In this document: one piece after another, positions 3,042 through 63,332 of the stretch
Position numbering within the stretch: the first letter of the stretch is position 1
Layout: each line of letters starts with the position of its first letter
IMG/VR virus record: IMGVR_UViG_3300031521_000027
Coordinates: 1 to 64,000 of that record
DNA length: 64,000 nt
From: a virus
Direction: 5' to 3' (one strand)
Made by a program: the position numbers and the translations under genes
Notes under the pieces: model-generated
What the model was told of the DNA's origin: nothing
What the model saw: the letters and a program-made list of their open reading frames with translations, nothing else
Database searches by the model: none

Positions 3042-3241
3042 ACAAGGTTCTGAAACAGGCAGTCGAAGACGCCTCGTACGAGCGCAGCGGCAGCGGTCAG
3101 GGAGTACCCACCAAGAAGGAGCTGGCCAAGCTCCTGAAGAAGGTCGAGAAGCTCAACAAGGGGGGCAACGAGACCCTCTACGACTACATCGACGCCACCC
3201 ACGACCTGATCAACGCCCTGCTGGTGAAGCTCTATGTCTGA
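3038..3241 (+). CDS. Hypothetical protein
   Basis: ATGA-coupled short ORF. Confidence 0.6.
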   Translation: MNKVLKQAVEDASYERSGSGQGVPTKKELAKLLKKVEKLNKGGNETLYDYIDATHDLINALLVKLYV

Positions 3242-4460
3242 CCAGATGAGCCTGCTCGAACTCAGCGAGCTGGAGGACGACCTTGTCCCCGAGATCCTGC
3301 CGTCGTCGGCGTCGCTGTCGATCAAGGCCGACGTCGCCAAGCTGAAGGCGCTGTTCTCCCGGGCCAACGGGGTCACACCCGTCCGGGAGATCGTGCCGGG
3401 CACGGCCTTCGCGCTGTTCGAGGCTGTTCCCACCACCTCCGAGGTGGCCGCGCATCTCCGGATCACGGCCACCGACGGGGAGCAGACGGTCTCCGTGGTG
3501 GAGGACGGTGTCGACGTCAAGGTGCCCGGCGCTGTCCTGCTGCCGCCCAAGCGGATGCTGGACATCCTGAAGCTGGCTCCGACCACCCGGGTCGACATCA
3601 CTGTGGTGGGCTCCACCGCTCTGGTGCGCTCGGGCCGCGCCCGCTGGACCGTGCAGGTACCTGTGGGGGAAATGAACCTGCTGGGGCTCGACGAGGTTTC
3701 TGGAATCAAGCTGGCTCCTGTGCCGGTGGTTCCCTTCCTGTGCGCCCTGATGGCTGCCCGCAAGGCTGCCTCCACCTCAGACGCCCGGGTGTCCCTGATG
3801 CAGGTCAAGGTCAAGGACTCCGCCATCGTCGCCTGCGACGGGGGACGGCTGCACAAGGCCACCGTGGCGGGGCTCGACCCGGCCATGGACACCACCATCC
3901 CGGTGCGGACGGTCGACGAGCTGATCAAGGCCCTCGACGGGGCCGACGAGTTGCTCATGGGCTTCGACGAGCGCCATCTGGTGTTCCGGGTGGGGGCCGA
4001 CTCCATCGTGGCCCAGAGGATGCTCCTGCCGTTCCCTGACGTGCAGTCCCTGCTGCTCGGGCCGCAGATCACCAACACCCTCGGGCTGCTGGTGGATCGC
4101 AACGAGCTGTACGAGGCGATCAAGCGGGTGCGGATCAACGCCGACCCTGACATCGCCGTGGTGTCCCTCAGCATCGTCAGGGGGGCCCGTAGCGCCACGG
4201 ACTGGGCTCTGGAGGTCAAGAGTAGGGACCGGGCAGGCAACACGGCGCAGGAGGTCGTGGAGTGCCAGTGGAAGGGCAAGCCGAAGGAGGTCTTCTACAA
4301 CCATCACTACCTCACCGATCTGCTGGAGGTGTGCATCGCCGACACGCTGATGCTGAGGATGGGCGGGGACACCAAGGCCAACCGCACGCCGCTGCTGATC
4401 GACGACACGGACGCAGGGGTGATGGGCATCATCCAGCAGACGACGGACCACTGGTCATAG
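3234..4460 (+). CDS. dnaN: DNA polymerase III beta subunit (sliding clamp)
   Basis: ITATDGE, VACDGGRL, FPDV and YNHHYLTDLL motifs; length fits a three-domain beta clamp. Confidence 0.85.
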   Translation: MSDQMSLLELSELEDDLVPEILPSSASLSIKADVAKLKALFSRANGVTPVREIVPGTAFALFEAVPTTSEVAAHLRITATDGEQTVSVVEDGVDVKVPGAVLLPPKRMLDILKLAPTTRVDITVVGSTALVRSGRARWTVQVPVGEMNLLGLDEVSGIKLAPVPVVPFLCALMAARKAASTSDARVSLMQVKVKDSAIVACDGGRLHKATVAGLDPAMDTTIPVRTVDELIKALDGADELLMGFDERHLVFRVGADSIVAQRMLLPFPDVQSLLLGPQITNTLGLLVDRNELYEAIKRVRINADPDIAVVSLSIVRGARSATDWALEVKSRDRAGNTAQEVVECQWKGKPKEVFYNHHYLTDLLEVCIADTLMLRMGGDTKANRTPLLIDDTDAGVMGIIQQTTDHWS

Positions 4461-7240: not shown

Positions 7241-7391
7241 GAACGTCAAGGTCCATGTGTCCCTGCTGGCAGCCGCCACGCTGGTTGCGGTGATGTGCCT
7301 GTACGGCTTCTGGTTCTACTCGCACTGCTTCTACATCCCGTTTCAGGACGCTCCTGCCGGGTGCTTCGGCTCGTTCGTGACGAGCAAGTGA
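7233..7391 (+). CDS. Small membrane protein
   Basis: AGGA RBS, hydrophobic helix. Confidence 0.55.
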   Translation: MPENVKVHVSLLAAATLVAVMCLYGFWFYSHCFYIPFQDAPAGCFGSFVTSK

Positions 7392-8518
7392 TGAGCGACG
7401 CCGACACAGCCCCACTGGCCCTGAAGTACCGGCCACAGGTGTTCCCCGATCTGGTGGGTCAGCGGCTCAACGCCACCGTGCTCCAGCGGATGGTCGACAC
7501 CGACCGGGTCCCACACGCCCTGCTCTTCTCCGGCCCGTCCGGGGTGGGCAAGACCACAGCCGCCCGGGTGCTCGCCTCCCAGATGGGGGCCTCCGATGTG
7601 ATCGAGGTGGACGCTGCCAGCAATGGGGGCGTGGACCAGATCCGCAAGCTGCTGGACGTGGCCCGGTTCTCCACAGGAGGGGCCCACAGGGTCATGGTGC
7701 TGGACGAGGCACACAGCATCACCCGGCAGGGCTTCGAGGCCCTCCTGAAGACGCTGGAGGAGCCGCCGAGCAATACCGTGTTCGTGCTGGTCACCACCGA
7801 GCCCCACAAGATCCCCGGCACCGTGCTGAGCAGGCTGGTGGAGTTCCAGTTCCGCGCCGTCCCCGACGCCGACGTGCTGGACCGGGTGATGGTGATCGCC
7901 CAGAAGGAGTCGATCCCTGCCGAGTTCGACCTGATCAACCACATCGTCCGGCTGGCAGGTGGCAACGTCCGCACCGCGCTGATGGCACTGGACCAGACGT
8001 GGCGCGCACAGGTGACCACCATGGCTGACTACCAGCGCCTGACGGGGGAGCACGACACGGCACCAGCCCTGCTGGAGGCCTGCGCCTCCGGCGACCACTC
8101 CCGGGTCTTCGAGGTGCTGGACACCCAGCTGTCCTCGGTGGGCTCGCCCGGCCAGATCACCGCTGAGCTGGTCTCCTGCCTGAGGGACCTGCTGGTGCTG
8201 CGCGCCGGAGGCACCCTGAAGGTGTCGGGGGAGGACTACGAGGTCCGCCATGGGCTGGCACTGAAGCTGGAGCCGGAGCGGTTGCTTGCTGCGATCCGGG
8301 TGTTGTGGGAGGTCAAGACCAAGATCCGCTCCGACGACCCCAGAGGGGTGCTGGAGATGGCGCTGGTGCTGGTCACCGAGGCGTTCACCAAGGGCAAGGA
8401 CATCATCCCCAAGGTCATGGCGATGGCCGTCCCTGCTCCATCCACTGAGGAGGTTCAGACCCCCCGGAGGATGAGCCTTTCCGACCTCCAGCGGTTTGCT
8501 CCGGCTGCATCTGTATGA
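7391..8518 (+). CDS. dnaX: DNA polymerase III gamma/tau-like clamp loader ATPase
   Basis: LALKYRPQ.F.DLVGQ, GPSGVGKTT, EVDAASNGGVDQIR, LDEAH, LLKTLEEPP, TVLSR. Confidence 0.92.
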   Translation: MSDADTAPLALKYRPQVFPDLVGQRLNATVLQRMVDTDRVPHALLFSGPSGVGKTTAARVLASQMGASDVIEVDAASNGGVDQIRKLLDVARFSTGGAHRVMVLDEAHSITRQGFEALLKTLEEPPSNTVFVLVTTEPHKIPGTVLSRLVEFQFRAVPDADVLDRVMVIAQKESIPAEFDLINHIVRLAGGNVRTALMALDQTWRAQVTTMADYQRLTGEHDTAPALLEACASGDHSRVFEVLDTQLSSVGSPGQITAELVSCLRDLLVLRAGGTLKVSGEDYEVRHGLALKLEPERLLAAIRVLWEVKTKIRSDDPRGVLEMALVLVTEAFTKGKDIIPKVMAMAVPAPSTEEVQTPRRMSLSDLQRFAPAASV

Positions 8519-50746: not shown

Positions 50747-50752
50747 GTGGTC
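50739..50752 (+). promoter_or_regulatory. Phage middle-promoter motif variant (GCGTATA AGTGGTC)
   Basis: Precedes GGAGG RBS and TTG 50768 of the SNF2-sigma pair. Confidence 0.55.
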
Positions 50753-50767
50753 AGGAGGAATAATCCC

Positions 50768-52498
50768 TTGCCACTCAACTTTGACGTCCGGAACTTCACC
50801 GAAGCTCGCCGTGAGCAGCTCGCGTGGAGGATCCACCAGTCCGTGAACTGGAAGCTCCCGCCCCTGAAGGTGTGGAACTACGACCTGTGCCGCATCCATG
50901 CGCGCGGGTGGGTCGAGGAGATCCGTGACACCGACGGTGAGGTCAAGACCCACACCGTCTACGACCGGCCCAAGCCCGGCTGCCGGGACTGTGGGATCCA
51001 CTTCCGCAGGCACCAGCACATCGGGGTGGCGTGGCTCTATTTCAAGAAACACGCCCTGCTGGCTGACACCATGGGATCGGGCAAGACCACCGAGGCTGGC
51101 GGGCTGATCGCCATGCTGATCGAGACCGGGGAGCTGTCCCTCTTCCGTGACAGATCCAGCGCCCACGGTGGCAAGGGTCGAGTCATCATCGTGCCCCGGT
51201 CCCCCGCCCTCCACCAGTGGCGCACCGAGCTTCTCCGGATGATGCCCAGCCTGAACATCCTCGTCTCCGAAGGCACCCGCAAGCAGCGCACCCAGTTCTA
51301 CCTCCAGCCGTGGCAGGTCCTCCTGATCGGGCCTGAGATGCTGCGCAACGACTACCAGCTGCTGGAGAACTTCGACCTCTCCCTCTTCCTCACCGACGAC
51401 ATCGACGCCCTCCGCAACCCCACCACCGAGACCTCCTACGTGCTGGACCGGATGGGTGCCCGGGGGGTCGAGGGCCTGCGTCCCGGCACCGACCGCTACG
51501 TCATCATGACCGGCACCCCCCTCCAGAAGCGCCTGCCCGAGCTGCACGCGGTGCTGGACGGCATCGGGGGCACCCTCGCGCTGGGCAGCATGGACTCCTT
51601 CGTCCACCGCCACGTCCGCAAGGCCACCATCACCGAGTACGACCGGAAGTCAGGCAAGGACATCCGCAAGGAGGTCGTGGTCGGCTACCGGGACCTCGGT
51701 ACGGTCAAGGCCCGGATCGCCCCGCTCGTGCTCCGCCGCACCGCCGCCGACCTCGACGACGTCGACCTGCCCACGATCATCCCCAACGACGTCATGCTCG
51801 ACCTCTACCCCGTGCAGCGGGCCAAGTACACCGAGCTGCGCAAGGGCGTGCTGAAGATCATCCGCGAGGAGGGCACGCAGGTGAAGCGCCCCAACGCGCT
51901 GGCCAAGATCCACTACGGTGCGGCCATCTGTGCAGGGCTCGCCGCGCTTGGGGAAGAGGACGGCCCCGGGACCAGCGTCAAGCTCGACTGGGTGGTCAAC
52001 CAGCTCACCGAGGGTGGGCTCAGCGAGCGCGGCGAGAAGGTGGTCGTGTTCGCCAACCTGAAGAACACCGTCAGGGCCCTCCAGATCCGGCTCAAGGAGG
52101 AGGGTGTGGGCTTCGTCACGGTGTGGGGGCAGGAGAACGACAAGGTCAAGCGCGCAGCCTCACAGGAGCGGTTCTGGACCGACCCGAAGTGCAAGGTGCT
52201 GATCGGCACCAAGGCCATCGAGCAGTCCCTGAACCTTCAGGTCTCCCGGCACCTCGTCAACATTGACATGATCTTGAACCCAGCGAGAATGGAGCAGTTG
52301 GCCGGACGTATTCGCCGCGACGGCTCGGCCTTCCAGCACGTCTACGTGCACAACCTCCTGACCATCAATACGCAGGAGGAGAAGTACCTCCCCCTGCTGG
52401 AGCGTGAAGCAGCGCTGGCCGCGCACATCTGGGACGAGGATTCCCAGCTGTTCACTGCCCTCTCACCCTTGGCCCTTCTACAGCTCATTTCCGGATGA
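50768..52498 (+). CDS. SNF2/SWI2-family helicase-like ATPase
   Basis: LLADTMGSGKT, P...LHQW..EL, MTGTPLQ, KVVVF, LNLQ, NPARMEQLAGRIRR.G; Walker B reads DDID. Confidence 0.85.
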   Translation: MPLNFDVRNFTEARREQLAWRIHQSVNWKLPPLKVWNYDLCRIHARGWVEEIRDTDGEVKTHTVYDRPKPGCRDCGIHFRRHQHIGVAWLYFKKHALLADTMGSGKTTEAGGLIAMLIETGELSLFRDRSSAHGGKGRVIIVPRSPALHQWRTELLRMMPSLNILVSEGTRKQRTQFYLQPWQVLLIGPEMLRNDYQLLENFDLSLFLTDDIDALRNPTTETSYVLDRMGARGVEGLRPGTDRYVIMTGTPLQKRLPELHAVLDGIGGTLALGSMDSFVHRHVRKATITEYDRKSGKDIRKEVVVGYRDLGTVKARIAPLVLRRTAADLDDVDLPTIIPNDVMLDLYPVQRAKYTELRKGVLKIIREEGTQVKRPNALAKIHYGAAICAGLAALGEEDGPGTSVKLDWVVNQLTEGGLSERGEKVVVFANLKNTVRALQIRLKEEGVGFVTVWGQENDKVKRAASQERFWTDPKCKVLIGTKAIEQSLNLQVSRHLVNIDMILNPARMEQLAGRIRRDGSAFQHVYVHNLLTINTQEEKYLPLLEREAALAAHIWDEDSQLFTALSPLALLQLISG

Positions 52499-53241
52499 AA
52501 GCAGTGACAATGACCGCCGCCACCCCCGTCCCCCTCTCCGACTACCAGAGCGAGTTGGTCAGGACCCACGTGGGCCTTGCCCAGAGCATTGCAATGTCTT
52601 TCTGGAAACGAGCCGCATCGGAAGTGGACCGCGACGAGATCGTGGCCATCGCCTATCAGGGGCTGATCACCGCCGCCCAGAGGTACGAACCCAACATCGT
52701 CCCGGAGAACGACCCGGACGTGGCGCTGCCCCCTGTTGCACTGACGTTCGGCCAGTACGCCAAGCGCCGCATCGGGGGAGCCATTCAGGACTGGATGCGC
52801 CAGCTGGACCACGTCCCCCGCAGGCAGCGCACCATCTACAAGGACATGCAGGAGCTGGCCCCCGGCAGGAGCCCTGAGGAGACCGCAGAGATCCTCGGGA
52901 TCGACGTCAACCGGGTCCGTGCGATCACCCACGCAGTCGAGTGCCCCCCGGTCTCACTGGACGACATGGCAGGCGACAGCGACCGGGGCAACATGGCTCC
53001 CCCAGCTGAGGGAGGCACCGAGGGATCAGTCGCAGCCCACATGCTTCAGGAGGCCATGGTCGAGGTCATGGAGGGGATGCCGTCGTTCGAGAAGTCGGTC
53101 ATCGTCCTGCGGTACTACATGGGCATGAGCTTCCCCCAGATCGCCGCCGAGCTGGGCTCCAGCGTGTCCACCGTCAAGGTCACCCACCAGCAGCAGATCC
53201 TGCTGATCCACGCCGCCATGGTCCAGACTGCGCGCTCCTGA
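52495..53241 (+). CDS. RNA polymerase sigma factor, FliA/WhiG (sigma-28) type
   Basis: GLITAAQRYEP, F..YA..RI.GAI.D..RQLDHVPR, VSLD, region 4 LRYY.GMSF.QIA..LG. Confidence 0.88.
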   Translation: MKAVTMTAATPVPLSDYQSELVRTHVGLAQSIAMSFWKRAASEVDRDEIVAIAYQGLITAAQRYEPNIVPENDPDVALPPVALTFGQYAKRRIGGAIQDWMRQLDHVPRRQRTIYKDMQELAPGRSPEETAEILGIDVNRVRAITHAVECPPVSLDDMAGDSDRGNMAPPAEGGTEGSVAAHMLQEAMVEVMEGMPSFEKSVIVLRYYMGMSFPQIAAELGSSVSTVKVTHQQQILLIHAAMVQTARS

Positions 53242-53494: not shown

Positions 53495-53746
53495 ATGGCT
53501 CACATCCCCAAGCCCTTCTCCCGTCCCAGCATCAGCCTCAACACCTCGGGCAGGCGCTGGGTCCAGACCCGCGCGTGGGACCTCGACACAGGGGACATCG
53601 TGCAGGACATGGGCATGGTCAAGGAGATCGAGAAGCACGTGACCACGACCAAGATCTCCTTCGCCTCCGGGCTGTCGTTCGTTTTCACAAACGACACCGT
53701 CATGCGCGCCTTCACGCTTGGAGAGTCCGTTGGCATCAGCCTCTGA
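53495..53746 (+). CDS. Small hypothetical protein
   Basis: Typical codon use; A.DL..GDIV beta-barrel-like motif. Confidence 0.6.
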   Translation: MAHIPKPFSRPSISLNTSGRRWVQTRAWDLDTGDIVQDMGMVKEIEKHVTTTKISFASGLSFVFTNDTVMRAFTLGESVGISL

Positions 53747-55199
53747 ACACTCCCAGATCGTCCTCTCGGCCATCTTGGCGGGCAGGCGCGATCTGCTGGA
53801 GAAGGCTGTCGCCCACCTGACGCCAGCCCACTTCCCGGAGAAGGTCCACGCCGACCTCTTCACCATGCTCATGCGCTTCTCGGACTACACCGGGGGCGCG
53901 GTCATGCCGCTGAAGTACCTCGACGACAACCTCCGTGGCCGCATGGAGCCGGGCAAGGCTCAGCTGTTCACCGAGACCTACGAGATGCTGTCGGAGACCA
54001 CGACAGAAGATTCTGAGTTCGCGTGGTCCCTCCAGCAGCTGCGCGAGCTGGCTGCCGACAAGACCACAGGCGAAGCCCTGACTGAGGCCATGGAGATCCT
54101 GCGCCGAGGCAAGACCATCGACAACCAGACCTATCAGGGCCACAACGATGCCCGCGCTCGCCTGCTGGAATCGTTTCAGGAAATCGACCGTGAGCTGGTT
54201 CGGCAGGACGCGCCGGAGGGGGACCTCGCAGACGAGGCCACCGAGATGAAGGCCGACTACGCCGAGCGGAAGAACGCGCGCCTCAAGGGTGTGTCCTCCG
54301 GCATCCGGTTCGGCATCGACGAGCTGGACCGCAAGATCGGTGGGCTCCAGCCGGGAGAGCTGGTGCTGCTCGCGGGCTACTCCAGCGACGGCAAGTCCTC
54401 CCTGTGCGTCCAGCTCGCGTGGAGCGCCGCCGTGGAGCAGGGACAGAACGTGGTCTTCCTGACCACCGAGACCCTGCGTCCCCAGATCCGCCGCAAGATC
54501 ATCGCCCGCCACTCCAAGCTGCCGATCTTCGAGACACCCGAGGGCCTTAACACCCGGGATCTGAAGGCAGGCACCTTGACGGATGAGCAGGAACTCATCC
54601 TCCCCCGGGTGATCGACGACCTCGCCAAGAACCCCGCCTACGGCAAGATCTACATCGCGCAGGTCCCTCGGGCGGCAGGCATCGCCAGCATCGAGCAGAG
54701 GCTGCTGCGGATCCAGCGGAAGTTCAACATCAAGCTGGTCATCGCCGACTACCTCGCGCTGCTGATCGCCGAGCGCAGACGCACCACGGCCCGGGAGGAG
54801 TACGCCGAGGTGCTGAAGAACGCCAAGCTCCTGTCGGTCGCCTTCGACAACGGGCGGGGAGTGGCCTTCGTGTCCCCGTGGCAGGTCTCCAGACAGCACA
54901 GGGAGGCCGCAGAGAACCTCGGGCAGTACACGTCCGCCGCGCTCTCCGAGACGGCTGAGGCGACGAACTCCTCCGACGTGATCGTCAGCCTGCTGGCCCC
55001 CACCGACAACACCGACCGGCACGCCGACGTCACCTTCCAGATCCTGAAGAACCGGGACGGCGAGACGGCCAACGGCATGATCGTCGAGGTCGACTACGCC
55101 ACCTGTCACTTCCGCAGCAAGCGGATGCTGGGAGCCCTCGGTACGGGTGGTCTCGACTACTCCACCAACGGCACCATGGAAAGCCTGCTGAGCGCCTGA
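53730..55199 (+). CDS. dnaB: DnaB-like replicative helicase
   Basis: GIDELDRKIGGLQPGELVLLAG...GKS, VVFLTTE, LVIADYL, WQVSR, LKNRDGE. Confidence 0.9.
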   Translation: MASASEHSQIVLSAILAGRRDLLEKAVAHLTPAHFPEKVHADLFTMLMRFSDYTGGAVMPLKYLDDNLRGRMEPGKAQLFTETYEMLSETTTEDSEFAWSLQQLRELAADKTTGEALTEAMEILRRGKTIDNQTYQGHNDARARLLESFQEIDRELVRQDAPEGDLADEATEMKADYAERKNARLKGVSSGIRFGIDELDRKIGGLQPGELVLLAGYSSDGKSSLCVQLAWSAAVEQGQNVVFLTTETLRPQIRRKIIARHSKLPIFETPEGLNTRDLKAGTLTDEQELILPRVIDDLAKNPAYGKIYIAQVPRAAGIASIEQRLLRIQRKFNIKLVIADYLALLIAERRRTTAREEYAEVLKNAKLLSVAFDNGRGVAFVSPWQVSRQHREAAENLGQYTSAALSETAEATNSSDVIVSLLAPTDNTDRHADVTFQILKNRDGETANGMIVEVDYATCHFRSKRMLGALGTGGLDYSTNGTMESLLSA

Positions 55200-56739: not shown

Positions 56740-57465
56740 TTGGCGTTTTACGAGAAACAAGCGGTCAACTTATCGGTCACCCCATGGAGGATTTCTGTGC
56801 CCAGTCTTACCGTTTCCCCCCGCACCATCACGCAGGCCGGAAGGCCCTCATCGTCGAGGTATCCGGACTTCGTCCCAGCCAACTACACCGAGCTGTTCGA
56901 CCACTACTACCCTTACGTCCGGGGCATCGTCTTCAAGTCCGGCATCGACTCCCAGAGCTGTGCGGACGTGACCATGTCCATCCTTGAGAAGTTCTTCGCC
57001 CACGACGTGCTGGCCGACTTCAACCCCGAGTTCACCTCCACCCATGGTGGGGTCACCCGCAAGGCCATGTTCCGGACCTTCCTGTCCGGCTTCGTCAAGA
57101 TCTACGTCCGGCACCACCGGGACCGCCAGATCATCACCAAGGCTCGCGAGGCCATCTCGCTCGACGCACCAGCCGGTGACGACAACACGTGGATGGACTA
57201 CTACGGGGAGACCCACGTCGACACCTACGATCAGCTGATGATCGAGGATGCCGTCCTCACCGTGCAGGACCACCTTGCCACCCTCTCCGACCCCCGGGGC
57301 CGCTGCGAGATGCTGGACCTGTTCAACATGACCTTGGAGCACTCGGTCACCTACGGCAGCCCCAACGTTGAAATCCTGTCCCAGTACTTCGAGGTCTCCG
57401 AGACCACGATCCGGAACCGGCTGAAGGCCCTGCGCGCCGAGATCCATGAGGTCTTCGAGTCATGA
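56740..57465 (+). CDS. RNA polymerase sigma factor, ECF-like (alternative start GTG 56797)
   Basis: Region 2-like YTELFDHYYPYV...ADV...FRTFL...VRHHR; region 4 HTH LSQYFEVSETTIRNRL. Confidence 0.7.
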   Translation: MAFYEKQAVNLSVTPWRISVPSLTVSPRTITQAGRPSSSRYPDFVPANYTELFDHYYPYVRGIVFKSGIDSQSCADVTMSILEKFFAHDVLADFNPEFTSTHGGVTRKAMFRTFLSGFVKIYVRHHRDRQIITKAREAISLDAPAGDDNTWMDYYGETHVDTYDQLMIEDAVLTVQDHLATLSDPRGRCEMLDLFNMTLEHSVTYGSPNVEILSQYFEVSETTIRNRLKALRAEIHEVFES

Positions 57466-58238
57466 TCAAGATGCCCGTCACGGTGCTGGGCATGTTCGAT
57501 GACCTGCCGCCGATCTCGCTCTTCGTCGGGCCTGCGTCGGTCGGCAAGTGGACCATCGCTGAAGCCCTCGGTCGCCACTTCTACAACTCCTTCGGCGTCA
57601 TCCGGGTCCGGGCCCTCACCATGGACGCCGCCCGGGACCTCACCGTGCTGTCCAACTTCTCCTCCCCCCGGCTGGTCATCGCCCGGCTCACCCGGTCCAC
57701 GGAGGCAGCCCAGAACGTGCTGCTGAAGACGCTGGAGGAGTGCTCGACCACGGCCACCAAGTTCATCCTGATCGACACTGAGCTGCCCCCTGAGACGATC
57801 ACCTCGCGGTGCACCGTCTACCGCTTCCCGCTGCTCACCGACGCGGCTGTGGAGGAGATCCTGCTGAACCGGAACTTCAGCGCGGTCGAGGCCAAGAGGC
57901 TGGCACTGGCTGCCGGGGGGCAGATGCGCAACGCCCTCAATCGAGGCGATACGGTCGACACCAAGCAGGTCGTGCTGTCGGCCCTGCGTGCGATCACCGA
58001 GAGGGACCCCGACACTCTGGACGACCTCGCCGTGAAGTGGAGCGACGAGCACTCCGAACTCATGGTGACGCTATGCACCGAGGCCATCTCCGGGCGCTAC
58101 CGGATCTTCAACTCTGAGGAGATCGAGGGCATCGGCAGGAAGCTGCCCCTGCGGATCCTGATCGCGCTAGGCCCCGGGATACGTCCGAGGCTGGTCGTAC
58201 GCTCCAGCTTGATGGGCGTGCTGAGGAGCGAGTGGTGA
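57462..58238 (+). CDS. holB: Clamp loader delta-prime-like subunit
   Basis: LFVGPASVGK.T.A, AAQNVLLKTLEE, TITSRC. Confidence 0.8.
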   Translation: MIKMPVTVLGMFDDLPPISLFVGPASVGKWTIAEALGRHFYNSFGVIRVRALTMDAARDLTVLSNFSSPRLVIARLTRSTEAAQNVLLKTLEECSTTATKFILIDTELPPETITSRCTVYRFPLLTDAAVEEILLNRNFSAVEAKRLALAAGGQMRNALNRGDTVDTKQVVLSALRAITERDPDTLDDLAVKWSDEHSELMVTLCTEAISGRYRIFNSEEIEGIGRKLPLRILIALGPGIRPRLVVRSSLMGVLRSEW

Positions 58239-58522
58239 GCGAAGAGCTGTGCGAGAAGACCGACATGCCGAAGTATTCGTGCGCCCACTGTCAGGGCATC
58301 AAGGAGGAACCCGTGGCTGTTTTCGGAAACGCTGATGTGCAGGAGTTCGAGCTGATCGGACGCCGCTTTCAGGCTGTCTACGGCGGGGTGTGCACGATCA
58401 ACTTCGACCACATCGTCAAGCGGCAGGACTGGGTCTCCAAGGTCCAGTTCTCCGACAACCCGATGCTGCCGGTGAGCGGTGTGGCCTGCGCCCAGTGCGT
58501 CCGGGTCCTGCCGCACGCCTGA
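58235..58522 (+). CDS. Small Cys-rich zinc-binding protein
   Basis: C...CAHC, C....H, CAQC. Confidence 0.6.
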   Translation: MSEELCEKTDMPKYSCAHCQGIKEEPVAVFGNADVQEFELIGRRFQAVYGGVCTINFDHIVKRQDWVSKVQFSDNPMLPVSGVACAQCVRVLPHA

Positions 58523-58989
58523 TGAGACCTACACAGGAAATCCGGCGCTTCTTCGCCAAGACCCTTGATGAAGACCGGGGGTACATCACTCCCTGCGTGA
58601 TCTGGACCGGCAGGAAGGTGAATGGGTACGGGGTGTTCGATCTCCAGCGCGATGACAACTCCGGCCCGCGTGCTGTGAAGGCCCACCGGTACTCCTACGG
58701 ACTGCTTCACGGAGAGCAGCACATCCGCAGCGCCGTGGTGGGTCGCGAGGACGAGATTGACCACCTCTGCTTGCAGCGGGACTGCGTCAGGGAAGGTCAT
58801 CTTGAACTCGTGACCCTGAAGGTCAACCGCCAGCGGATGCACGACGTCCACCGGACAGAGATGTGCAAGAGAGGTCTCCACCTTCGCGCTGAGTTCGAGC
58901 GGATCAAGTCGACCGGCGCTCCGTACTGCTTGGGGTGTCAGAGGATCAACGATGCTAAGCGTCGTCCTCGTAAGAAGAGGGAGGTCTGA
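58522..58989 (+). CDS. HNH endonuclease
   Basis: CVIWTG...NGYG.F, KAHR.SY, IDHLC..R.CV...HLE.VT...N. Confidence 0.85.
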   Translation: MRPTQEIRRFFAKTLDEDRGYITPCVIWTGRKVNGYGVFDLQRDDNSGPRAVKAHRYSYGLLHGEQHIRSAVVGREDEIDHLCLQRDCVREGHLELVTLKVNRQRMHDVHRTEMCKRGLHLRAEFERIKSTGAPYCLGCQRINDAKRRPRKKREV

Positions 58990-59986
58990 CATCGCCACCT
59001 TCAGTGGCTGGCTGACCGGGACCAAGAAGACCCCTGAGCCCCGGCAGATCACGTGGGTGTGCGGGCCGGAGGTCGTGCTTGTGGAGGAGGTCGTCCGGAG
59101 CGTCTCGGAGTTCCTCGCCCCCGAGCCGTGGAACCGGGTCAGCCTCGTGGCCGGAGATGATTCTGAGCGGGACATCTGGGCCGCGCTGGACCAGCACCCG
59201 ATGGACACCTCACCCCGGCTGGTGATCGTCCGGCACGTCGAGAAGATCCATGAGTGGGACCGCTTCGTGCAGTGGGTCAAGGACCGCTCGCGCAACCCCC
59301 GGACCTACGTGGTCATGGTCTCCTCCGAGGCGGCTGTTCCGAAGACCGAGCCCACCCCGGAGGAGCGCAGACACGGTACCCGCCCGGAGCCCCTCCCGCA
59401 CATAGCCTGTATCGGATCCAAGGGCCACGTGGTGGAGTGCAAGCCGTTCACCTCGGCCACCGCGCTGCGCTCCGTGGAGTGGGTCCAGTCGAAGGCCCCC
59501 ATGCGGGACGGCATCGCCCGGCACCTGCTCACCCGCTCGAACTGGAACCTGCGGCTGGTCCGCGACATCTGCCTGAAGCTCGCCGTGTTCCCCGGTGAGA
59601 TCACCATCTCAGTGGTCAACACCCTGCTGGCCGAGCAGCCCCGGGACAGCTTCACCGACGCCCTGCTGGCGCTGGACCGCAAGACCGCACTGCTCGCCGC
59701 CGAGTCGATCCCTCGCGAGGAGGTCGGGCGCATCATCGGCCTGCTGGACGCGAAGCTCGACAAGGCTGGGATGATCCATGACATGCAGGTGGACCACAAG
59801 TCACCCGGCGACATGGCCAAGGCTCTGGGTCCGCAGGCGTTCCTGCTCACCGAGCTGATGAACGTCTCCAAGCACTACAACGCCAAGCGCAGGCTCGCGA
59901 TCCGCAGGACGCTGGCCGTGGTCGACGAGGCCTACCGCTCCGGGCAGACAACGGGTCTGCTCGAAGTTGTCGTGGCGTTCTGGTGA
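58952..59986 (+). CDS. holA: Clamp loader delta-like subunit (start uncertain)
   Basis: W.CG.E.VL.EE, P.....RLVIVR, W.........I...A..L....NL......KL pattern of HolA; size about 340 aa. Confidence 0.65.
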   Translation: MLSVVLVRRGRSDIATFSGWLTGTKKTPEPRQITWVCGPEVVLVEEVVRSVSEFLAPEPWNRVSLVAGDDSERDIWAALDQHPMDTSPRLVIVRHVEKIHEWDRFVQWVKDRSRNPRTYVVMVSSEAAVPKTEPTPEERRHGTRPEPLPHIACIGSKGHVVECKPFTSATALRSVEWVQSKAPMRDGIARHLLTRSNWNLRLVRDICLKLAVFPGEITISVVNTLLAEQPRDSFTDALLALDRKTALLAAESIPREEVGRIIGLLDAKLDKAGMIHDMQVDHKSPGDMAKALGPQAFLLTELMNVSKHYNAKRRLAIRRTLAVVDEAYRSGQTTGLLEVVVAFW

Positions 59987-60031: not shown

Positions 60032-60223
60032 ATGGACTGGGCAACGTACTGGATCCTGCTGGCGCAGGCAGGCATCGCTCTCGTAGCGCTGGCCGTGCCG
60101 CTGTCGTTCGCCATCGCGGTGGCAGGAGCAGGTGTCAAGGCAGCCATGAAGAGTGCGGGCTCAGCTGAGGTCCCGCAGGCTCCCCTGACCCAGAACACCT
60201 ACACCTTCCCGCCGACCAAGTGA
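60032..60223 (+). CDS. Small membrane protein
   Basis: AAGGAG RBS, hydrophobic helix. Confidence 0.6.
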   Translation: MDWATYWILLAQAGIALVALAVPLSFAIAVAGAGVKAAMKSAGSAEVPQAPLTQNTYTFPPTK

Positions 60224-62829
60224 CCACTCGCAACTACGGAGCCCTCCGGGAGGCCTACGGGTCCAAGGGTGCGGTCTCCTTCATCGACCGGATCACAGCC
60301 AGCGGTAAGCCCTTCGACTTCGACATCGAGGCGGGCTACACCGGGGACGACAAGAAGGGTGTCTCCCTCCAGCAGTACCACCCCGACTACCTCGTGGTCG
60401 GCATCTCCTTCACGGTCTCCACCGAGTGGGCCCGCTACATCCCCTTCGCCCACGACAGCGGCGGCAACATCGACGACATCGTCCCGGTGGCCCGCGCCTT
60501 GTGGCGGCTGCTCAGCTCCGGGCAGGGGATCGCCCACAACGCAGCCTACGAACTCAAGGGCATGTCCCGGTGGTTTCGTGAAACGTTGTGGAACGACGAC
60601 GAGCTGGGCGAAGAGATCCGACGCACCAAGGGCATGTTCCCGATCCTCGCTGACACGATGCTGCTGGTCTGGCTCGCCGCCTGCTACGACCCGCTCCGCG
60701 TCGGCAAGGACCTGAAGTCGGTGGCCAAGGCCGCGTTCGGCATGGAGATGACCCACTTCGACGACCTCTTCCCCACCACTGACACCGACCTCGGCCCGGC
60801 CATGAAGCGGGGTGGCAAGCCGTACATCCGGTTCAACACCCGCAACTCCTACAGCCCCGTGATCGTGGGCTACGCCTGTGAGGACTCCGTCGCCTCCTTC
60901 ATGGTCTGGGAGAAGCACTACGAGGCCCTCAAGGACACGTTCATCTTCAAGACCGAGATGGCCCTGCTCCCGGGACTGGTGGAGATGGAGGCCGGGGTCA
61001 TCGATCCGGAGACCGGGGTCGCCTCCGGCAACATGTTCTTCCACTGGCCCAACGTCCGCAAGAAGTCCGAGGAGGCCCTGCGCTTCGCCACCCTCATGGG
61101 TGAGGAGATTCAGGACCAGCTGGGCAAGCGGCTGAACAAGACCATCAACATCAACCTGAACTCGGTCCCGCAGCTGGCCAAGGTCCTGTTCGACGAGAAG
61201 CCCGACGGCCTCGGCCTGCCAGTGAAGGTGCGCTCGGAGAAGACCGGGGCACCCAGCACCAGCGACGACGCCCTGAAGGTGATTGCCAAGTCCGACCCGA
61301 TCATCAAGATGATCCTTGAGTACCGGCAGGTGGTGAAGCTCAACGGGTCCTACCTGACCAAGTTCATCAACGAGCTGGGCTACTCCGGCACCGGCTACGT
61401 CTTCCCCAACCACAACCAGTTCGGTGCCCTCACCGGGCGGCTCTCGGTGGATCAGGTCAGCTACCAGCAGTGGCCCAAGCCGTACCACTTCCAGCTGCTG
61501 TCCGGGCTCACCTTCGACCTCAACTTCCGGGACCTGTTCATCTCCCCGGACCACTTCCGGATCGTCGGCTTCGACTACGCCAACGTGGAGATGCGGATCG
61601 CCGGGGCCCTGTCCGGTGAGCGCAAGATCATCGACGCCTTCAACAACGGGCTCGACCTCCACAAGTCCACCGCCTCGGCCACCTTCAAGGTCAGCCTCGA
61701 AGATGTCACCAAGAAGCAGCGGCAGTCGGCCAAGACCCTGAACTTCGCCACCCTCTTCGGGTCCGGTGCAGGGAACATCGCCGAGATGCTGACCAGCCCC
61801 TCCGACCCGGTGACCAAGGAGGACGCCGAGCAGATGCTGGAGGACTACTTCGCTGGGTACCCAGCGCTGGCCGATTGGATCGCCAGCCAGAAGGCGCACG
61901 GTCGTGAGTCCAAGGAGGTCCGCACCCACTTCGGTCGGCTCTACACCATCTGGGAGCACTACCAGCCCAAGGAGTGGATCAAGGCCAAGGGTGACCGGAT
62001 GTCGGTCAACGCACCGATTCAGGGCACCGCCGCCGACATCCTCAAGATCGCCATGGTCCGTGCCAAGAAGGCCATCAAGGAGGCCGGGCTGGAGGACCTC
62101 GTCCGGATGACCCTGACCGTCCACGACGCGCTGGAGTTCCTCGTCCACGAGTCCGTCTCCACCCAGCAGGTCATCGACCTGATCGAGCCCTGCGTCAACT
62201 TCCCGGTGCCCGGCTTCCCGCTGGAGATCCGGGCGGACTGGCACGAGGGCTACCAGTGGGGTGCCCAGACCGAGGTCCGGCTCGACGAGAACAAGCAGAT
62301 CAAGAGCTTCGACATCGAGGTGGAGCTGCCGTGGCTGAAGGAGTCCCACTACTGGGAGGGCTCCACGCTGCACGAGGTGCTGGACCAGTACTACGCGTGG
62401 GAGGCAGGCTTCTTCGGCTTCTCCGCCCCGTACTACGCCACCCGCAACCCAGACTTCTCCCTGCCCGAACCCGCAGATGCCTCCCAGCAGCCCGACGTTG
62501 CCGCTGTGGAGCCTGAGGAGGAGGACCCGGGGTGGTTCCACAGCGCGGAGCACAACGCCGCACTGCTGCCCCCCAAGACCGCCACGGTGACCATCTCCGA
62601 GATGCCCGACGAGGAGCAGTGGCTGAAGTTCACCACCTACCTCGACTTCCGGCAGGGTGTGGACACGGTCAAGGTCGAGACCCCGGAGGGTGTCGTCACG
62701 CTCGACGGCACGTTCCGGATCTCCCCGGACGATCAGCCAGCCATCAGCCTCATCCTCGGAGGGGCCGGTCTGGTGATCGCTGACGACGTGGCCGACGCCG
62801 ACGACGTGATGGCAGGGATGCTGGTATGA
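60220..62829 (+). CDS. polA: Family A DNA polymerase with 3'-5' exonuclease and extra C-terminal domain
   Basis: Exo FDIE, HNAAYE, YACED; TGRLS; motif A DYANVEMR; motif B RQSAKTLNFATLFG; NAPIQGTAAD; motif C VHDAL. Confidence 0.92.
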   Translation: MTTRNYGALREAYGSKGAVSFIDRITASGKPFDFDIEAGYTGDDKKGVSLQQYHPDYLVVGISFTVSTEWARYIPFAHDSGGNIDDIVPVARALWRLLSSGQGIAHNAAYELKGMSRWFRETLWNDDELGEEIRRTKGMFPILADTMLLVWLAACYDPLRVGKDLKSVAKAAFGMEMTHFDDLFPTTDTDLGPAMKRGGKPYIRFNTRNSYSPVIVGYACEDSVASFMVWEKHYEALKDTFIFKTEMALLPGLVEMEAGVIDPETGVASGNMFFHWPNVRKKSEEALRFATLMGEEIQDQLGKRLNKTININLNSVPQLAKVLFDEKPDGLGLPVKVRSEKTGAPSTSDDALKVIAKSDPIIKMILEYRQVVKLNGSYLTKFINELGYSGTGYVFPNHNQFGALTGRLSVDQVSYQQWPKPYHFQLLSGLTFDLNFRDLFISPDHFRIVGFDYANVEMRIAGALSGERKIIDAFNNGLDLHKSTASATFKVSLEDVTKKQRQSAKTLNFATLFGSGAGNIAEMLTSPSDPVTKEDAEQMLEDYFAGYPALADWIASQKAHGRESKEVRTHFGRLYTIWEHYQPKEWIKAKGDRMSVNAPIQGTAADILKIAMVRAKKAIKEAGLEDLVRMTLTVHDALEFLVHESVSTQQVIDLIEPCVNFPVPGFPLEIRADWHEGYQWGAQTEVRLDENKQIKSFDIEVELPWLKESHYWEGSTLHEVLDQYYAWEAGFFGFSAPYYATRNPDFSLPEPADASQQPDVAAVEPEEEDPGWFHSAEHNAALLPPKTATVTISEMPDEEQWLKFTTYLDFRQGVDTVKVETPEGVVTLDGTFRISPDDQPAISLILGGAGLVIADDVADADDVMAGMLV

Positions 62830-63332
62830 GCAACGAGTCCGACTTCGAGGCCCAGATCATGGCGTGGGTCACTGAGACGCTGGAGCTTCGCCACGGTGAG
62901 GCAGGGGACCCCAAGGGCAGGCTGCGCGGTGCTGAGCAGGAGAGCATCGCGGAGATGACCGACCTGCTGCTGCGGGTCAGGGCACGCGCCGACCGGGTCG
63001 ACGAGCTGCTGAGCAAGGTCACCCTCGCTCGGGGCCGGGCACGTAGGGCCAAGGAGGAGGCAGCCTTCACCGCTGACCGAGCCCTGATGCAGGCCACCCA
63101 GATCCGGGGGGCGAAGAGGACCGAGTTCTCCTCCGCCGCCGAGCGGGCAGCCGACGCCAAGCTGGATTCGTTTGAGGAAAGAAGGGTGGCTTATCTTAGG
63201 GACAGATTGGTATCGGTTACCAATGATGCCCACGAAGTGATTTCACAGGTTCACTGGCAGCTGGACGCCATCCGCAAGGACCTGCGCGCCTCGCTCCACG
63301 CCCTCCAGTTCGAGTCCTCGCTGGAACGGTGA
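62826..63332 (+). CDS. Coiled-coil hypothetical protein (possibly a UvsY-like mediator)
   Basis: All-helical 168 aa between pol and SSB; function inferred from context only. Confidence 0.5.
   Translation: MSNESDFEAQIMAWVTETLELRHGEAGDPKGRLRGAEQESIAEMTDLLLRVRARADRVDELLSKVTLARGRARRAKEEAAFTADRALMQATQIRGAKRTEFSSAAERAADAKLDSFEERRVAYLRDRLVSVTNDAHEVISQVHWQLDAIRKDLRASLHALQFESSLER

What the first reader, a model, noticed from the sequence alone, without database searches (positions are those of the whole stretch)
62560..62829. Family A polymerase carries a DnaE (Pol III alpha)-like C-terminal domain
Seen: after motif C and an acidic linker the protein ends in ATVTI...WLKFTTYLDFRQGVDTVKVETPEGVVTLDGTFRISPDDQPAISLILGGAGLV. 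Known, from memory of the family: the actinobacterial DnaE1 C-terminal domain follows the pattern L..vL..hpG...V.l......l.L...lrV.p...l...l..lLG...v, and in E. coli this region of alpha binds tau. Inference: a Pol III tethering domain has been grafted onto Pol A, which would link it to the loader. Caveat: the phage DnaX is short and seems to lack tau domain V, so the partner may be host tau or another protein.
Basis: inference. Interest (0 to 1): 0.7.

Follow-up and report, generated by a model that had tools for sequence, protein, structure and literature searches.

The report
Phage Pol A with DnaE docking domain
A phage family A DNA polymerase ends in a small domain that looks like a distant copy of the part of the bacterial replicase Pol III alpha that holds the clamp-loader subunit tau. 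The phage therefore seems to have rebuilt a bacterial-style replisome around a different polymerase, but what the domain binds is still unknown.

Summary
Window 62560-62829 encodes the last 89 residues of an 869-aa family A polymerase (60220-62829). An AlphaFold model gives a confident beta-alpha-beta-beta-alpha-beta domain at aa 786-856.

- **Profile:** against 50 bacterial DnaE tails, profile-profile comparison gives P 1.3e-5 over the whole domain, while controls score 14 or less. Against full-length DnaE, only the last 80 columns match.
- **Plain HMMER:** HMMER and Pfam PF20914 do not see the link, so the homology is remote.
- **Distribution:** 118 of the 120 closest Pol A relatives carry the domain. 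They come from roughly 125-135 kb phages; the one cultured member is Microbacterium phage Magritte. Every relative tested encodes a beta clamp, a gamma-length DnaX and a delta-like subunit, and none has a Pol III alpha.

One candidate ligand is a conserved C-terminal peptide on the phage DnaX; host tau is a rival. The scan has already reported the same kind of graft in other genomes.

The parts
60220..62829 (+). Family A DNA polymerase gene (869 aa): 3'-5' exonuclease and polymerase core plus a 190-aa C-terminal extension
   Evidence: ORF list and translation. Pfam PF00476 E 4e-77 over aa 306-680. NCBIfam PRK05755 matches aa 59-681. phrog_17 matches aa 24-692.
61135..62259 (+). Pol A catalytic domain (aa 306-680), motif C HDALEF at 62122-62139
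62266..62445 (+). First added domain (aa 683-742): three strands and two helices, conserved across the clade, no known family
62446..62574 (+). Acidic, Pro-rich linker (aa 743-785) holding the short motif EEEDPGWFHS (62515-62544), which is conserved in close relatives only
   Evidence: pLDDT 53-67. Consensus. The P.W motif is present in 34 of 120 relatives.
62575..62787 (+). DnaE-like C-terminal domain (aa 786-856): b1 786-791, a1 798-809, b2 812-821, b3 824-827, a2 836-846, b4 850-855. Clade-specific conserved residues are MP, QW..F, PG, TPEG, DQ and LILGGA
62788..62826 (+). Acidic-hydrophobic C-terminal tail (aa 857-869, ...DADDVMAGMLV), a possible clamp-binding or partner peptide; subfamily-specific
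   Evidence: Alignment of tails. A strict form of the motif occurs in 39 of 120 relatives. Predicted helix at aa 860-867, pLDDT about 62. The function is inference only.
7391..8518 (+). Phage DnaX-like clamp-loader ATPase of gamma length (375 aa): domains I-III, a Pro/Ala linker and a conserved C-terminal peptide
   Evidence: Pfam DNA_pol3_delta2 2.8e-23, AAA, DNA_pol3_gamma3. No tau domain V hit.
8465..8497 (+). Conserved C-terminal peptide of DnaX (RRMSLSDLQRF; family consensus R-K-L-S/T-L-x-E/D-L/M-R); candidate ligand of the Pol A C-terminal domain
   Evidence: Conserved in the window and 10 of 10 related phage genomes (alignment A4). Binding is not tested.
3234..4460 (+). Phage beta sliding clamp (DnaN-like, three domains)
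   Evidence: Pfam PF00712, PF02767, PF02768. Present in 5 of 5 complete relatives.
57462..58238 (+). delta-prime-like AAA+ clamp-loader subunit
   Evidence: Pfam DNA_pol3_delta2 3.7e-7. phrog_5846 'clamp loader of DNA polymerase' 1.5e-11.
58952..59986 (+). delta-like clamp-loader subunit
   Evidence: Weak Pfam DNA_pol3_delta_C hit, E 0.0018, below the cut-off. Conserved in 5 of 5 complete relatives.
53718..55199 (+). DnaB-like replicative helicase
   Evidence: Pfam DnaB_C 7.4e-24.

Best explanation
The last 85 or so residues of this phage family A polymerase form a beta-alpha-beta-beta-alpha-beta domain. It is a remote homologue of the C-terminal tau-binding domain of bacterial Pol III alpha (DnaE1). 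The domain hangs on a flexible acidic linker behind a second added domain, and it is a fixed feature of a whole Pol A clade. The related phages tested all encode a bacterial-type beta clamp, a gamma-length DnaX and a delta-like subunit, and none has a family C polymerase; a delta-prime-like subunit was identified in the window only. The domain most likely works as a docking module that tethers Pol A to the clamp loader, as the DnaE domain tethers alpha to tau. The best candidate ligand is the conserved C-terminal peptide (R-K-L-S-L-x-E-L-R) that sits on a Pro/Ala linker behind domain III of the phage DnaX, which would act as a minimal tau. Shown here: the fold, the remote homology, the conservation and the gene context. 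Inferred: that the domain binds anything, and what it binds.
For: Fold:
- AF2 gives pLDDT 94-96 over the domain.
- The Foldseek PDB top 7 hits are all Pol III alpha.

Profile:
- hhalign of 156 phage domains against 50 DnaE tails gives Prob 80%, P 1.3e-5 and 72 columns in the expected register.
- The reversed control scores 13.1, and 40 column shuffles score at most 13.9, against 34.0 for the real comparison.
- Actinobacterial and non-actinobacterial DnaE subsets both match, at P 4.6e-5 and 1.6e-4.
- Against a full-length DnaE profile, the only hit is columns 1132-1210 of 1230.
- The tool's own hhalign, on smaller alignments, gives P 8.8e-4 in the same register.
- Weak reciprocal hmmsearch hits all land in the respective C-terminal domains.

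Conservation:
- 118 of the 120 closest Pol A cores carry the domain.

Context:
- DnaX, beta, delta-like, delta-prime-like and DnaB genes are present.
- DnaX was found in 10 of 10 related genomes.
- 5 of 5 complete relatives have beta and delta-like genes and no PF07733.
- The DnaX C-terminal peptide is conserved in the window and in 10 of 10 related genomes.

Established knowledge:
- In E. coli the alpha C-terminus binds tau domain V, with contacts at L1097/8, Y1119 and L1128 (PMC11869525).
- That paper's reference list cites Jergic et al. 2007, whose title names the unstructured tau C-terminus as the alpha-binding site.
Against: Plain HMMER does not connect the two families:
- There is no Pol III alpha among PDB sequences at E up to 10.
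- There is no DnaE among the 150 best of 183 hits in 1.84 billion representatives.
- There is no PF20914 hit at E up to 10.

Other weaknesses:
- hhalign probability is 80% with deep alignments and 23% with small ones.
- The phage DnaX lacks tau domains IV/V. Its peptide does not resemble the bacterial tau C-terminal motif, which reads FFDAELDEE in E. coli and ELGAxVVEE in Actinobacteriota.
- One relative (L014) keeps the DnaX peptide although its Pol A domain has lost TPEG and LILGGA. The two therefore do not simply co-vary.
- The domain that precedes it is not the OB fold found in DnaE.
Confidence: 0.55

Rival explanations
1. The domain is homologous to the DnaE tail but docks on the host's tau, through tau's universal C-terminal motif and domain V, rather than on a phage protein. 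Pol A would then be plugged into host clamp-loader or helicase assemblies, possibly early in infection.
For: The homology to a tau-binding domain stands. The phage DnaX has no tau domain V. The 82-kb record holds no tau-type motif. Actinobacterial tau ends in a strongly conserved motif that could be a fixed target. Other reports of this scan describe phage PolB with the same domain in phages that lack clamp loaders (these are unchecked AI notes).
Against: The phage encodes its own complete clamp, clamp loader and helicase, so it has little need of host tau. The domain's most conserved residues (TPEG, QW, LILGGA) are clade-specific and absent from DnaE tails. The actinobacterial DnaE subset does not match better than the other bacteria, so there is no sign of mimicry of the host's DnaE1.
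Confidence: 0.15
2. The domain is an unrelated or only analogous small alpha/beta domain, ferredoxin-like or KaiB-like. It would have another role, such as polymerase dimerisation, DNA binding or regulation, and the DnaE resemblance would carry no functional meaning.
Against: Of 48,161 chains, the top two are both the same domain of the same protein family, also at the extreme C-terminus of a replicative polymerase. hhalign gives P 1.3e-5 with clean controls, and only the C-terminal domain of full-length DnaE matches. PF20914 is a narrow model that passes its own cut-off in only 1 of the 14 control genomes, while PF07733 shows 10 of them to carry DnaE.
Confidence: 0.15
3. The domain and/or the acidic-hydrophobic tail behind it bind another replisome part: the phage beta clamp, DnaB or the gp32-like SSB. 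The DnaX peptide would then serve a different contact, for example DnaB, as tau domain IV does in E. coli.
For: The extreme C-terminus (h-h-x-G-h-x-L, preceded by acidic residues) resembles the C-terminal clamp-binding peptides of other polymerases; this comparison is from memory and was not tested. The clamp, DnaB and SSB genes are all present. The DnaX peptide is kept where the Pol A domain has diverged.
Against: The tail motif is found in only about a third of the clade, while the domain is universal. No evidence of any kind exists for these contacts.
Confidence: 0.15

Closest known systems
C-terminal tau-binding domain of bacterial Pol III alpha (DnaE1): E. coli residues about 1078-1160 (PDB 5FKU/5FKV), Thermus aquaticus 1127-1205 (2HPI, 3E0D, 4IQJ); Pfam PF20914 covers E. 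coli 1100-1151
   Different: The host protein is family A, not family C. Identity is 16-18%, and HMMER and PF20914 find no match. The b2-b3 hairpin is shorter and carries a clade-specific TPEG. The domain is preceded by a non-OB domain and an acidic linker instead of the OB fold. No tau with domain V is encoded beside it.
Phages with Pol A plus a polIII-beta clamp and a gamma-like clamp-loader subunit (Ma-LMM01, RSL1; Kazlauskas and Venclovas 2011, PMC3201878)
   Same: A family A polymerase co-occurs with bacterial-type clamp and clamp-loader genes, which suggests a hybrid replicase.
   Different: That paper reports a single clamp-loader subunit and no docking domain on the polymerase. Here the set is DnaX, delta-like, delta-prime-like and beta, and the polymerase itself carries a DnaE-type tail. 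I did not examine the Ma-LMM01 or RSL1 polymerases.
E. coli tau C-terminus as the alpha-binding element (Jergic et al. 2007, cited in PMC11869525)
   Same: It is a short peptide at the end of DnaX on a flexible linker, like the conserved peptide at the end of the phage DnaX.
   Different: The phage peptide (R-K-L-S-L-x-E-L-R) does not match the bacterial motif (FFDAELDEE or ELGAxVVEE), and no folded domain V precedes it.
Microbacterium phage Magritte gp69, annotated 'DNA polymerase I' (OR553905)
   Same: It is the only cultured relative: 48% identical over the whole protein, with the same extension and a syntenic replication module.
   Different: Its record annotates nothing about the C-terminal domain, and its clamp-loader genes are labelled only 'ASCE ATPase'.

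Membership tests
Pol III alpha C-terminal (tau-binding) domain | beta-alpha-beta-beta-alpha-beta fold that superposes on the alpha C-terminal domain | tested here: met
Pol III alpha C-terminal (tau-binding) domain | Sequence-profile similarity to DnaE tails | tested here: met
   hhalign P 1.3e-5, Prob 80%, 72 columns; controls score at most 13.9 against 34.0; only the C-terminal domain of full-length DnaE matches. With small alignments P is 8.8e-4. The relation is remote.
Pol III alpha C-terminal (tau-binding) domain | Match to the curated Pfam model PF20914 (DNA_pol_IIIA_C) | tested here: not met
   No hit at E up to 10. The model is narrow: it passes its cut-off in only 1 of the 14 control genomes, 10 of which carry DnaE by PF07733. 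This weighs little.
Pol III alpha C-terminal (tau-binding) domain | Lies at the extreme C-terminus of the replicative polymerase | tested here: met
   aa 786-856 of 869, and the only polymerase found in the record. No PF07733 in the record itself or in 5 complete relatives.
Pol III alpha C-terminal (tau-binding) domain | Preceded by the DnaE OB-fold domain and an internal clamp-binding motif | tested here: not met
Pol III alpha C-terminal (tau-binding) domain | Binds tau (domain V and C-terminal peptide) | not testable with these tools
No wet-lab data exist.
Pol III alpha C-terminal (tau-binding) domain | A tau partner with domain V or the tau C-terminal motif encoded alongside | tested here: not met
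   The phage DnaX has domains I-III only. No PF12170 hit; that model passed its cut-off in only 1 of the 14 control genomes. No [LFM][GD]Ax[VIL][VILE][DE] motif in any sense-strand ORF of the 82-kb record, which is 66% complete.
Family A DNA polymerase (Pol I-like) | Pfam PF00476 polymerase domain with motif C, plus an N-terminal 3'-5' exonuclease region | tested here: met
   PF00476 E 4e-77 over aa 306-680. NCBIfam PRK05755 aligns aa 59-681. HDALEF at aa 635-640.

The most novel reading that the evidence does not exclude
The phage runs a 'minimal tau' system. A gamma-length DnaX would carry only a roughly 10-residue C-terminal peptide on a flexible linker, and that peptide would bind the DnaE-derived domain on Pol A. 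The tau-alpha coupling of bacterial replisomes would then be reproduced by a peptide-domain pair that can be moved between polymerase families (A here; B in other phages noted by this scan).
Probability: 0.3. Interest if true: 0.75.

Novelty: new variant of a known kind. Interest (0 to 1): 0.6.

Why it matters
If the domain does dock Pol A on a clamp loader, polymerase-to-loader coupling is a portable module that can be moved onto an unrelated polymerase family. Until now that coupling has been known only for family C Pol III alpha and tau.

It would also explain how a whole clade of large phages of actinobacteria pairs a bacterial-type clamp and clamp loader with a Pol I-type enzyme. The cultured member, Microbacterium phage Magritte, offers a small, tractable system for studying leading- and lagging-strand coupling.

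No paper in the searchable library describes this domain on a family A polymerase. Public annotation of the cultured relative calls the protein simply 'DNA polymerase I'.

Tried and rejected
- **Complex prediction:** I tried to co-fold the Pol A tail with the DnaX C-terminal 41 residues.
- **HMMER searches:**
  - Single sequence and an 11-sequence profile against PDB sequences gave only chance hits such as transducin gamma and TrmB.
  - The profile against 1.84 billion representatives gave 183 hits. The listed 150 are Pol A proteins, their fragments, or Ig-repeat proteins (TIG, He_PIG) that score through summed hairpins and are false positives. None is a DnaE.
- **Pfam, NCBIfam and PHROGs:** none of them matched the tail.
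- **BFVD fold search:** nothing significant.
- **Catalytic-core swap idea:** I asked whether a 130-kb actinophage with a DnaE polymerase (Coruscant, Peregrin) had swapped its catalytic core for Pol A while keeping the tail. I rejected this, because their DnaE proteins end at the OB fold and lack the domain, and their replication modules have no annotated clamp-loader genes.
- **Downstream gene as partner:** I asked whether the translationally coupled 168-aa gene is the partner. It is conserved next to Pol A, but its only lead is UvsY-like, so it is more likely a recombination mediator.
- **Middle domain as a DnaE OB equivalent:** no support.
- **Aromatic residue and DnaX peptide:** the aromatic residue of the QW motif seems to track the DnaX peptide across 10 genomes. 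I judged this too few genomes, and too confounded by relatedness, to count as evidence.

Full report
**What is at the site.** The + strand ORF 60220-62829 encodes an 869-aa family A DNA polymerase. Pfam DNA_pol_A covers aa 306-680 at E 4e-77. NCBIfam Pol I models align from aa 59, so the 3'-5' exonuclease region is included. Motif C (HDALEF) is at aa 635-640.

About 190 residues follow the core, and no library recognises them (Pfam, NCBIfam, PHROGs). The finding's coordinates, 62560-62829, translate to the last 89 residues plus the stop, and the quoted string is present. The window is the end of an 81,941-bp IMG/VR virus record that is 66% complete, with 64.5% G+C.

**Anatomy of the extension.** I collected 23 homologues with the same tail, aligned them and folded the last 200 residues. 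The mean pLDDT was 83. The model has these parts:
- A first added domain, aa 683-742, with three strands and two helices (pLDDT 81-95).
- A poorly ordered acidic, Pro-rich linker, aa 743-785.
- A beta-alpha-beta-beta-alpha-beta domain, aa 786-856 (pLDDT 94-96).
- A 13-residue acidic-hydrophobic tail.

**Is the last domain DnaE-like? Structure.** The Foldseek search of the PDB returned Pol III alpha as its top seven hits: Taq 2HPI, 3E0D and 4IQJ, and E. coli 5FKU. VIA-align gave these ranges:

**Is the last domain DnaE-like? Sequence.** Plain HMMER does not see the relation:
- There is no Pol III alpha among PDB sequences.
- There is no DnaE among the 150 listed hits of a profile search of 1.84 billion representatives.
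- There is no PF20914 hit. That model passes its own cut-off in only one of the 14 control genomes, although 10 of them carry DnaE by PF07733.

I therefore fetched 80 DnaE genes from Actinobacteria, Clostridia, Desulfobacterota, Bdellovibrionota and Gammaproteobacteria and took the tails of the 48 complete ones, plus those of E. coli and Streptomyces phage Indigo. I compared this profile with a 156-sequence profile of the phage domain:
- hhalign gives Prob 80%, P 1.3e-5 and score 34.0 over 72 columns. It pairs b1, the helix, the h-PG turn, the hairpin, the R-[VI]-[ST]-P turn, the second helix ending in LLG/LGG, and b4.
- The reversed DnaE alignment scores 13.1, and 40 column shuffles score at most 13.9.
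- Actinobacterial and non-actinobacterial subsets both match, at P 4.6e-5 and 1.6e-4.
- Against a full-length DnaE profile of 1230 columns, the only hit is columns 1132-1210, with score 28.8 against 12.2 for the next.
- The session's own hhalign tool, on smaller alignments, gives P 8.8e-4 in the same register.
- Weak reciprocal hmmsearch hits all fall inside the two C-terminal domains.

I conclude that this is remote homology, at about 80% confidence.

**Distribution.** All 120 best homologues of the Pol A core (46-91% identity) are at least 781 aa long, and 118 carry the domain. One exception is truncated, and the other has a visibly diverged copy. Longer members hold inteins or other insertions in the core.

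The clade is known almost only from metagenomes, in phage genomes of 124-137 kb. Microbacterium phage Magritte is the single cultured relative: its gp69 is annotated 'DNA polymerase I' and is 48% identical.

**Context.** The window also encodes:
- a three-domain beta clamp (3234-4460);
- a DnaX-like ATPase (7391-8518);
- a DnaB-like helicase (53718-55199);
- a delta-prime-like subunit (57462-58238);
- a delta-like subunit (58952-59986).

No Pol III alpha catalytic domain is present in the record or in five complete relatives. Those five all have the clamp, the delta-like gene and DnaX. Pol A is therefore the only polymerase found in these records for this bacterial-type clamp and loader to serve. 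Pol A with a polIII-beta clamp and a gamma homologue has been noted before in Ma-LMM01 and RSL1 (PMC3201878), but without any docking domain.

**What might it bind?** In E. coli the alpha C-terminus contacts tau domain V, at L1097/8, Y1119 and L1128 (PMC11869525). That paper's reference list cites Jergic et al. 2007, whose title names the unstructured tau C-terminus as the alpha-binding site.

The phage DnaX has domains I-III only. Behind them, however, lies a Pro/Ala-rich linker and a C-terminal peptide, R-K-L-S/T-L-x-E/D-L/M-R (window 8465-8497). This peptide is conserved in the window and in all ten related genomes examined. It is my leading candidate for the ligand.

Three observations count against it:
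- The peptide does not resemble the bacterial tau C-terminal motif, which I read from real sequences as FFDAELDEE in E. coli and ELGAxVVEE across Actinobacteriota.
- No such bacterial motif occurs in any sense-strand ORF of the 82-kb record.
- One relative keeps the peptide although its Pol A domain has lost the clade's TPEG and LILGGA signatures.

Host tau is thus a live rival, as are the clamp, DnaB and SSB.

**Other short motifs.** Close relatives share an EEEDPGWFHS-type motif in the linker and an h-h-x-G-h-x-L C-terminus preceded by acidic residues. By strict patterns, these are present in only 34 and 39 of 120 members. The C-terminal one resembles polymerase clamp-binding tails; that comparison is from memory and untested.

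**Comparison with the known, and novelty.** The domain works like, and is probably derived from, the DnaE tau-binding domain. It is not a member by the curated Pfam model, it lacks the DnaE OB-fold neighbour, and it has no classical tau partner. I rate it a new variant of a known kind.

I found no paper describing it. Other reports of this scan describe the same kind of graft on Pol A, and on PolB, in other genomes. I reached my reading independently, before seeing them.

**Verdict.**
- The domain identity is supported.
- The tethering function is inferred.
- The partner is unknown.

Noticed in passing
window 62826-63332 (+): A 168-aa predicted helical protein whose ATG overlaps the Pol A stop codon (ATGA). 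It is conserved directly downstream of Pol A in 11 related loci from 9 distinct phages (36-89% identity) and sits before the gp32-like SSB gene. It has no Pfam or PHROG hit. The ESM Atlas gives a weak lead to UvsY, the recombination mediator (11% of one cluster).
   Followed up: partly
window 8465-8497 (+), end of DnaX-like gene 7391-8518: A conserved C-terminal peptide, R-K-L-S/T-L-x-E/D-L/M-R, lies after a variable Pro/Ala linker in the phage DnaX of all 11 genomes examined. Its partner is unknown.
   Followed up: partly
L120, L122, L124, L127-L156 (bacterial dnaX loci) and L126 (E. coli dnaX): Tau proteins of Actinobacteriota end in a conserved motif (h-h-x-x-E/G-L/F-G/D-A-x-V/I-V/I-E/D-E). 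It lines up with E. coli tau's FFDAELDEE near its alpha-binding C-terminus, which suggests one widespread tau C-terminal peptide.
   Followed up: partly
window 58390-58989 (+): An HNH/His-Me endonuclease-like ORF lies between the delta-prime-like and delta-like genes. It overlaps the small ORF 58232-58522 and the start of the delta-like gene, and may be a homing endonuclease inserted in the clamp-loader operon.
   Followed up: no
P0029, P0039, P0043, P0057, P0090, P0105, P0153, P0179, P0191, P0197, P0207, P0260: Many Pol A homologues of this clade are 1,130-1,480 aa long because of insertions in the core. Some carry Pfam PF14528 (LAGLIDADG), so they are probably inteins.
   Followed up: no
G001:C1:102576-103808 (relative's beta clamp gene): The beta-clamp match in one complete relative contains one in-frame TAG.
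   Followed up: no
window 52495-53241 and 56740-57465 (+): A sigma-70 family protein (regions 2 and 4) and an HTH protein are embedded in the replication module, next to an SNF2-type helicase (50747-52498).
   Followed up: no
P0032, P0050, P0054, P0060, P0064, P0138, P0161, P0162: Long proteins hit the C-terminal domain profile through 6-12 short stretches each. The three that were scanned (P0032, P0064, P0161) are Ig-like repeat proteins (TIG, He_PIG, Big), so these are false positives of the profile search, not relatives.
   Followed up: yes
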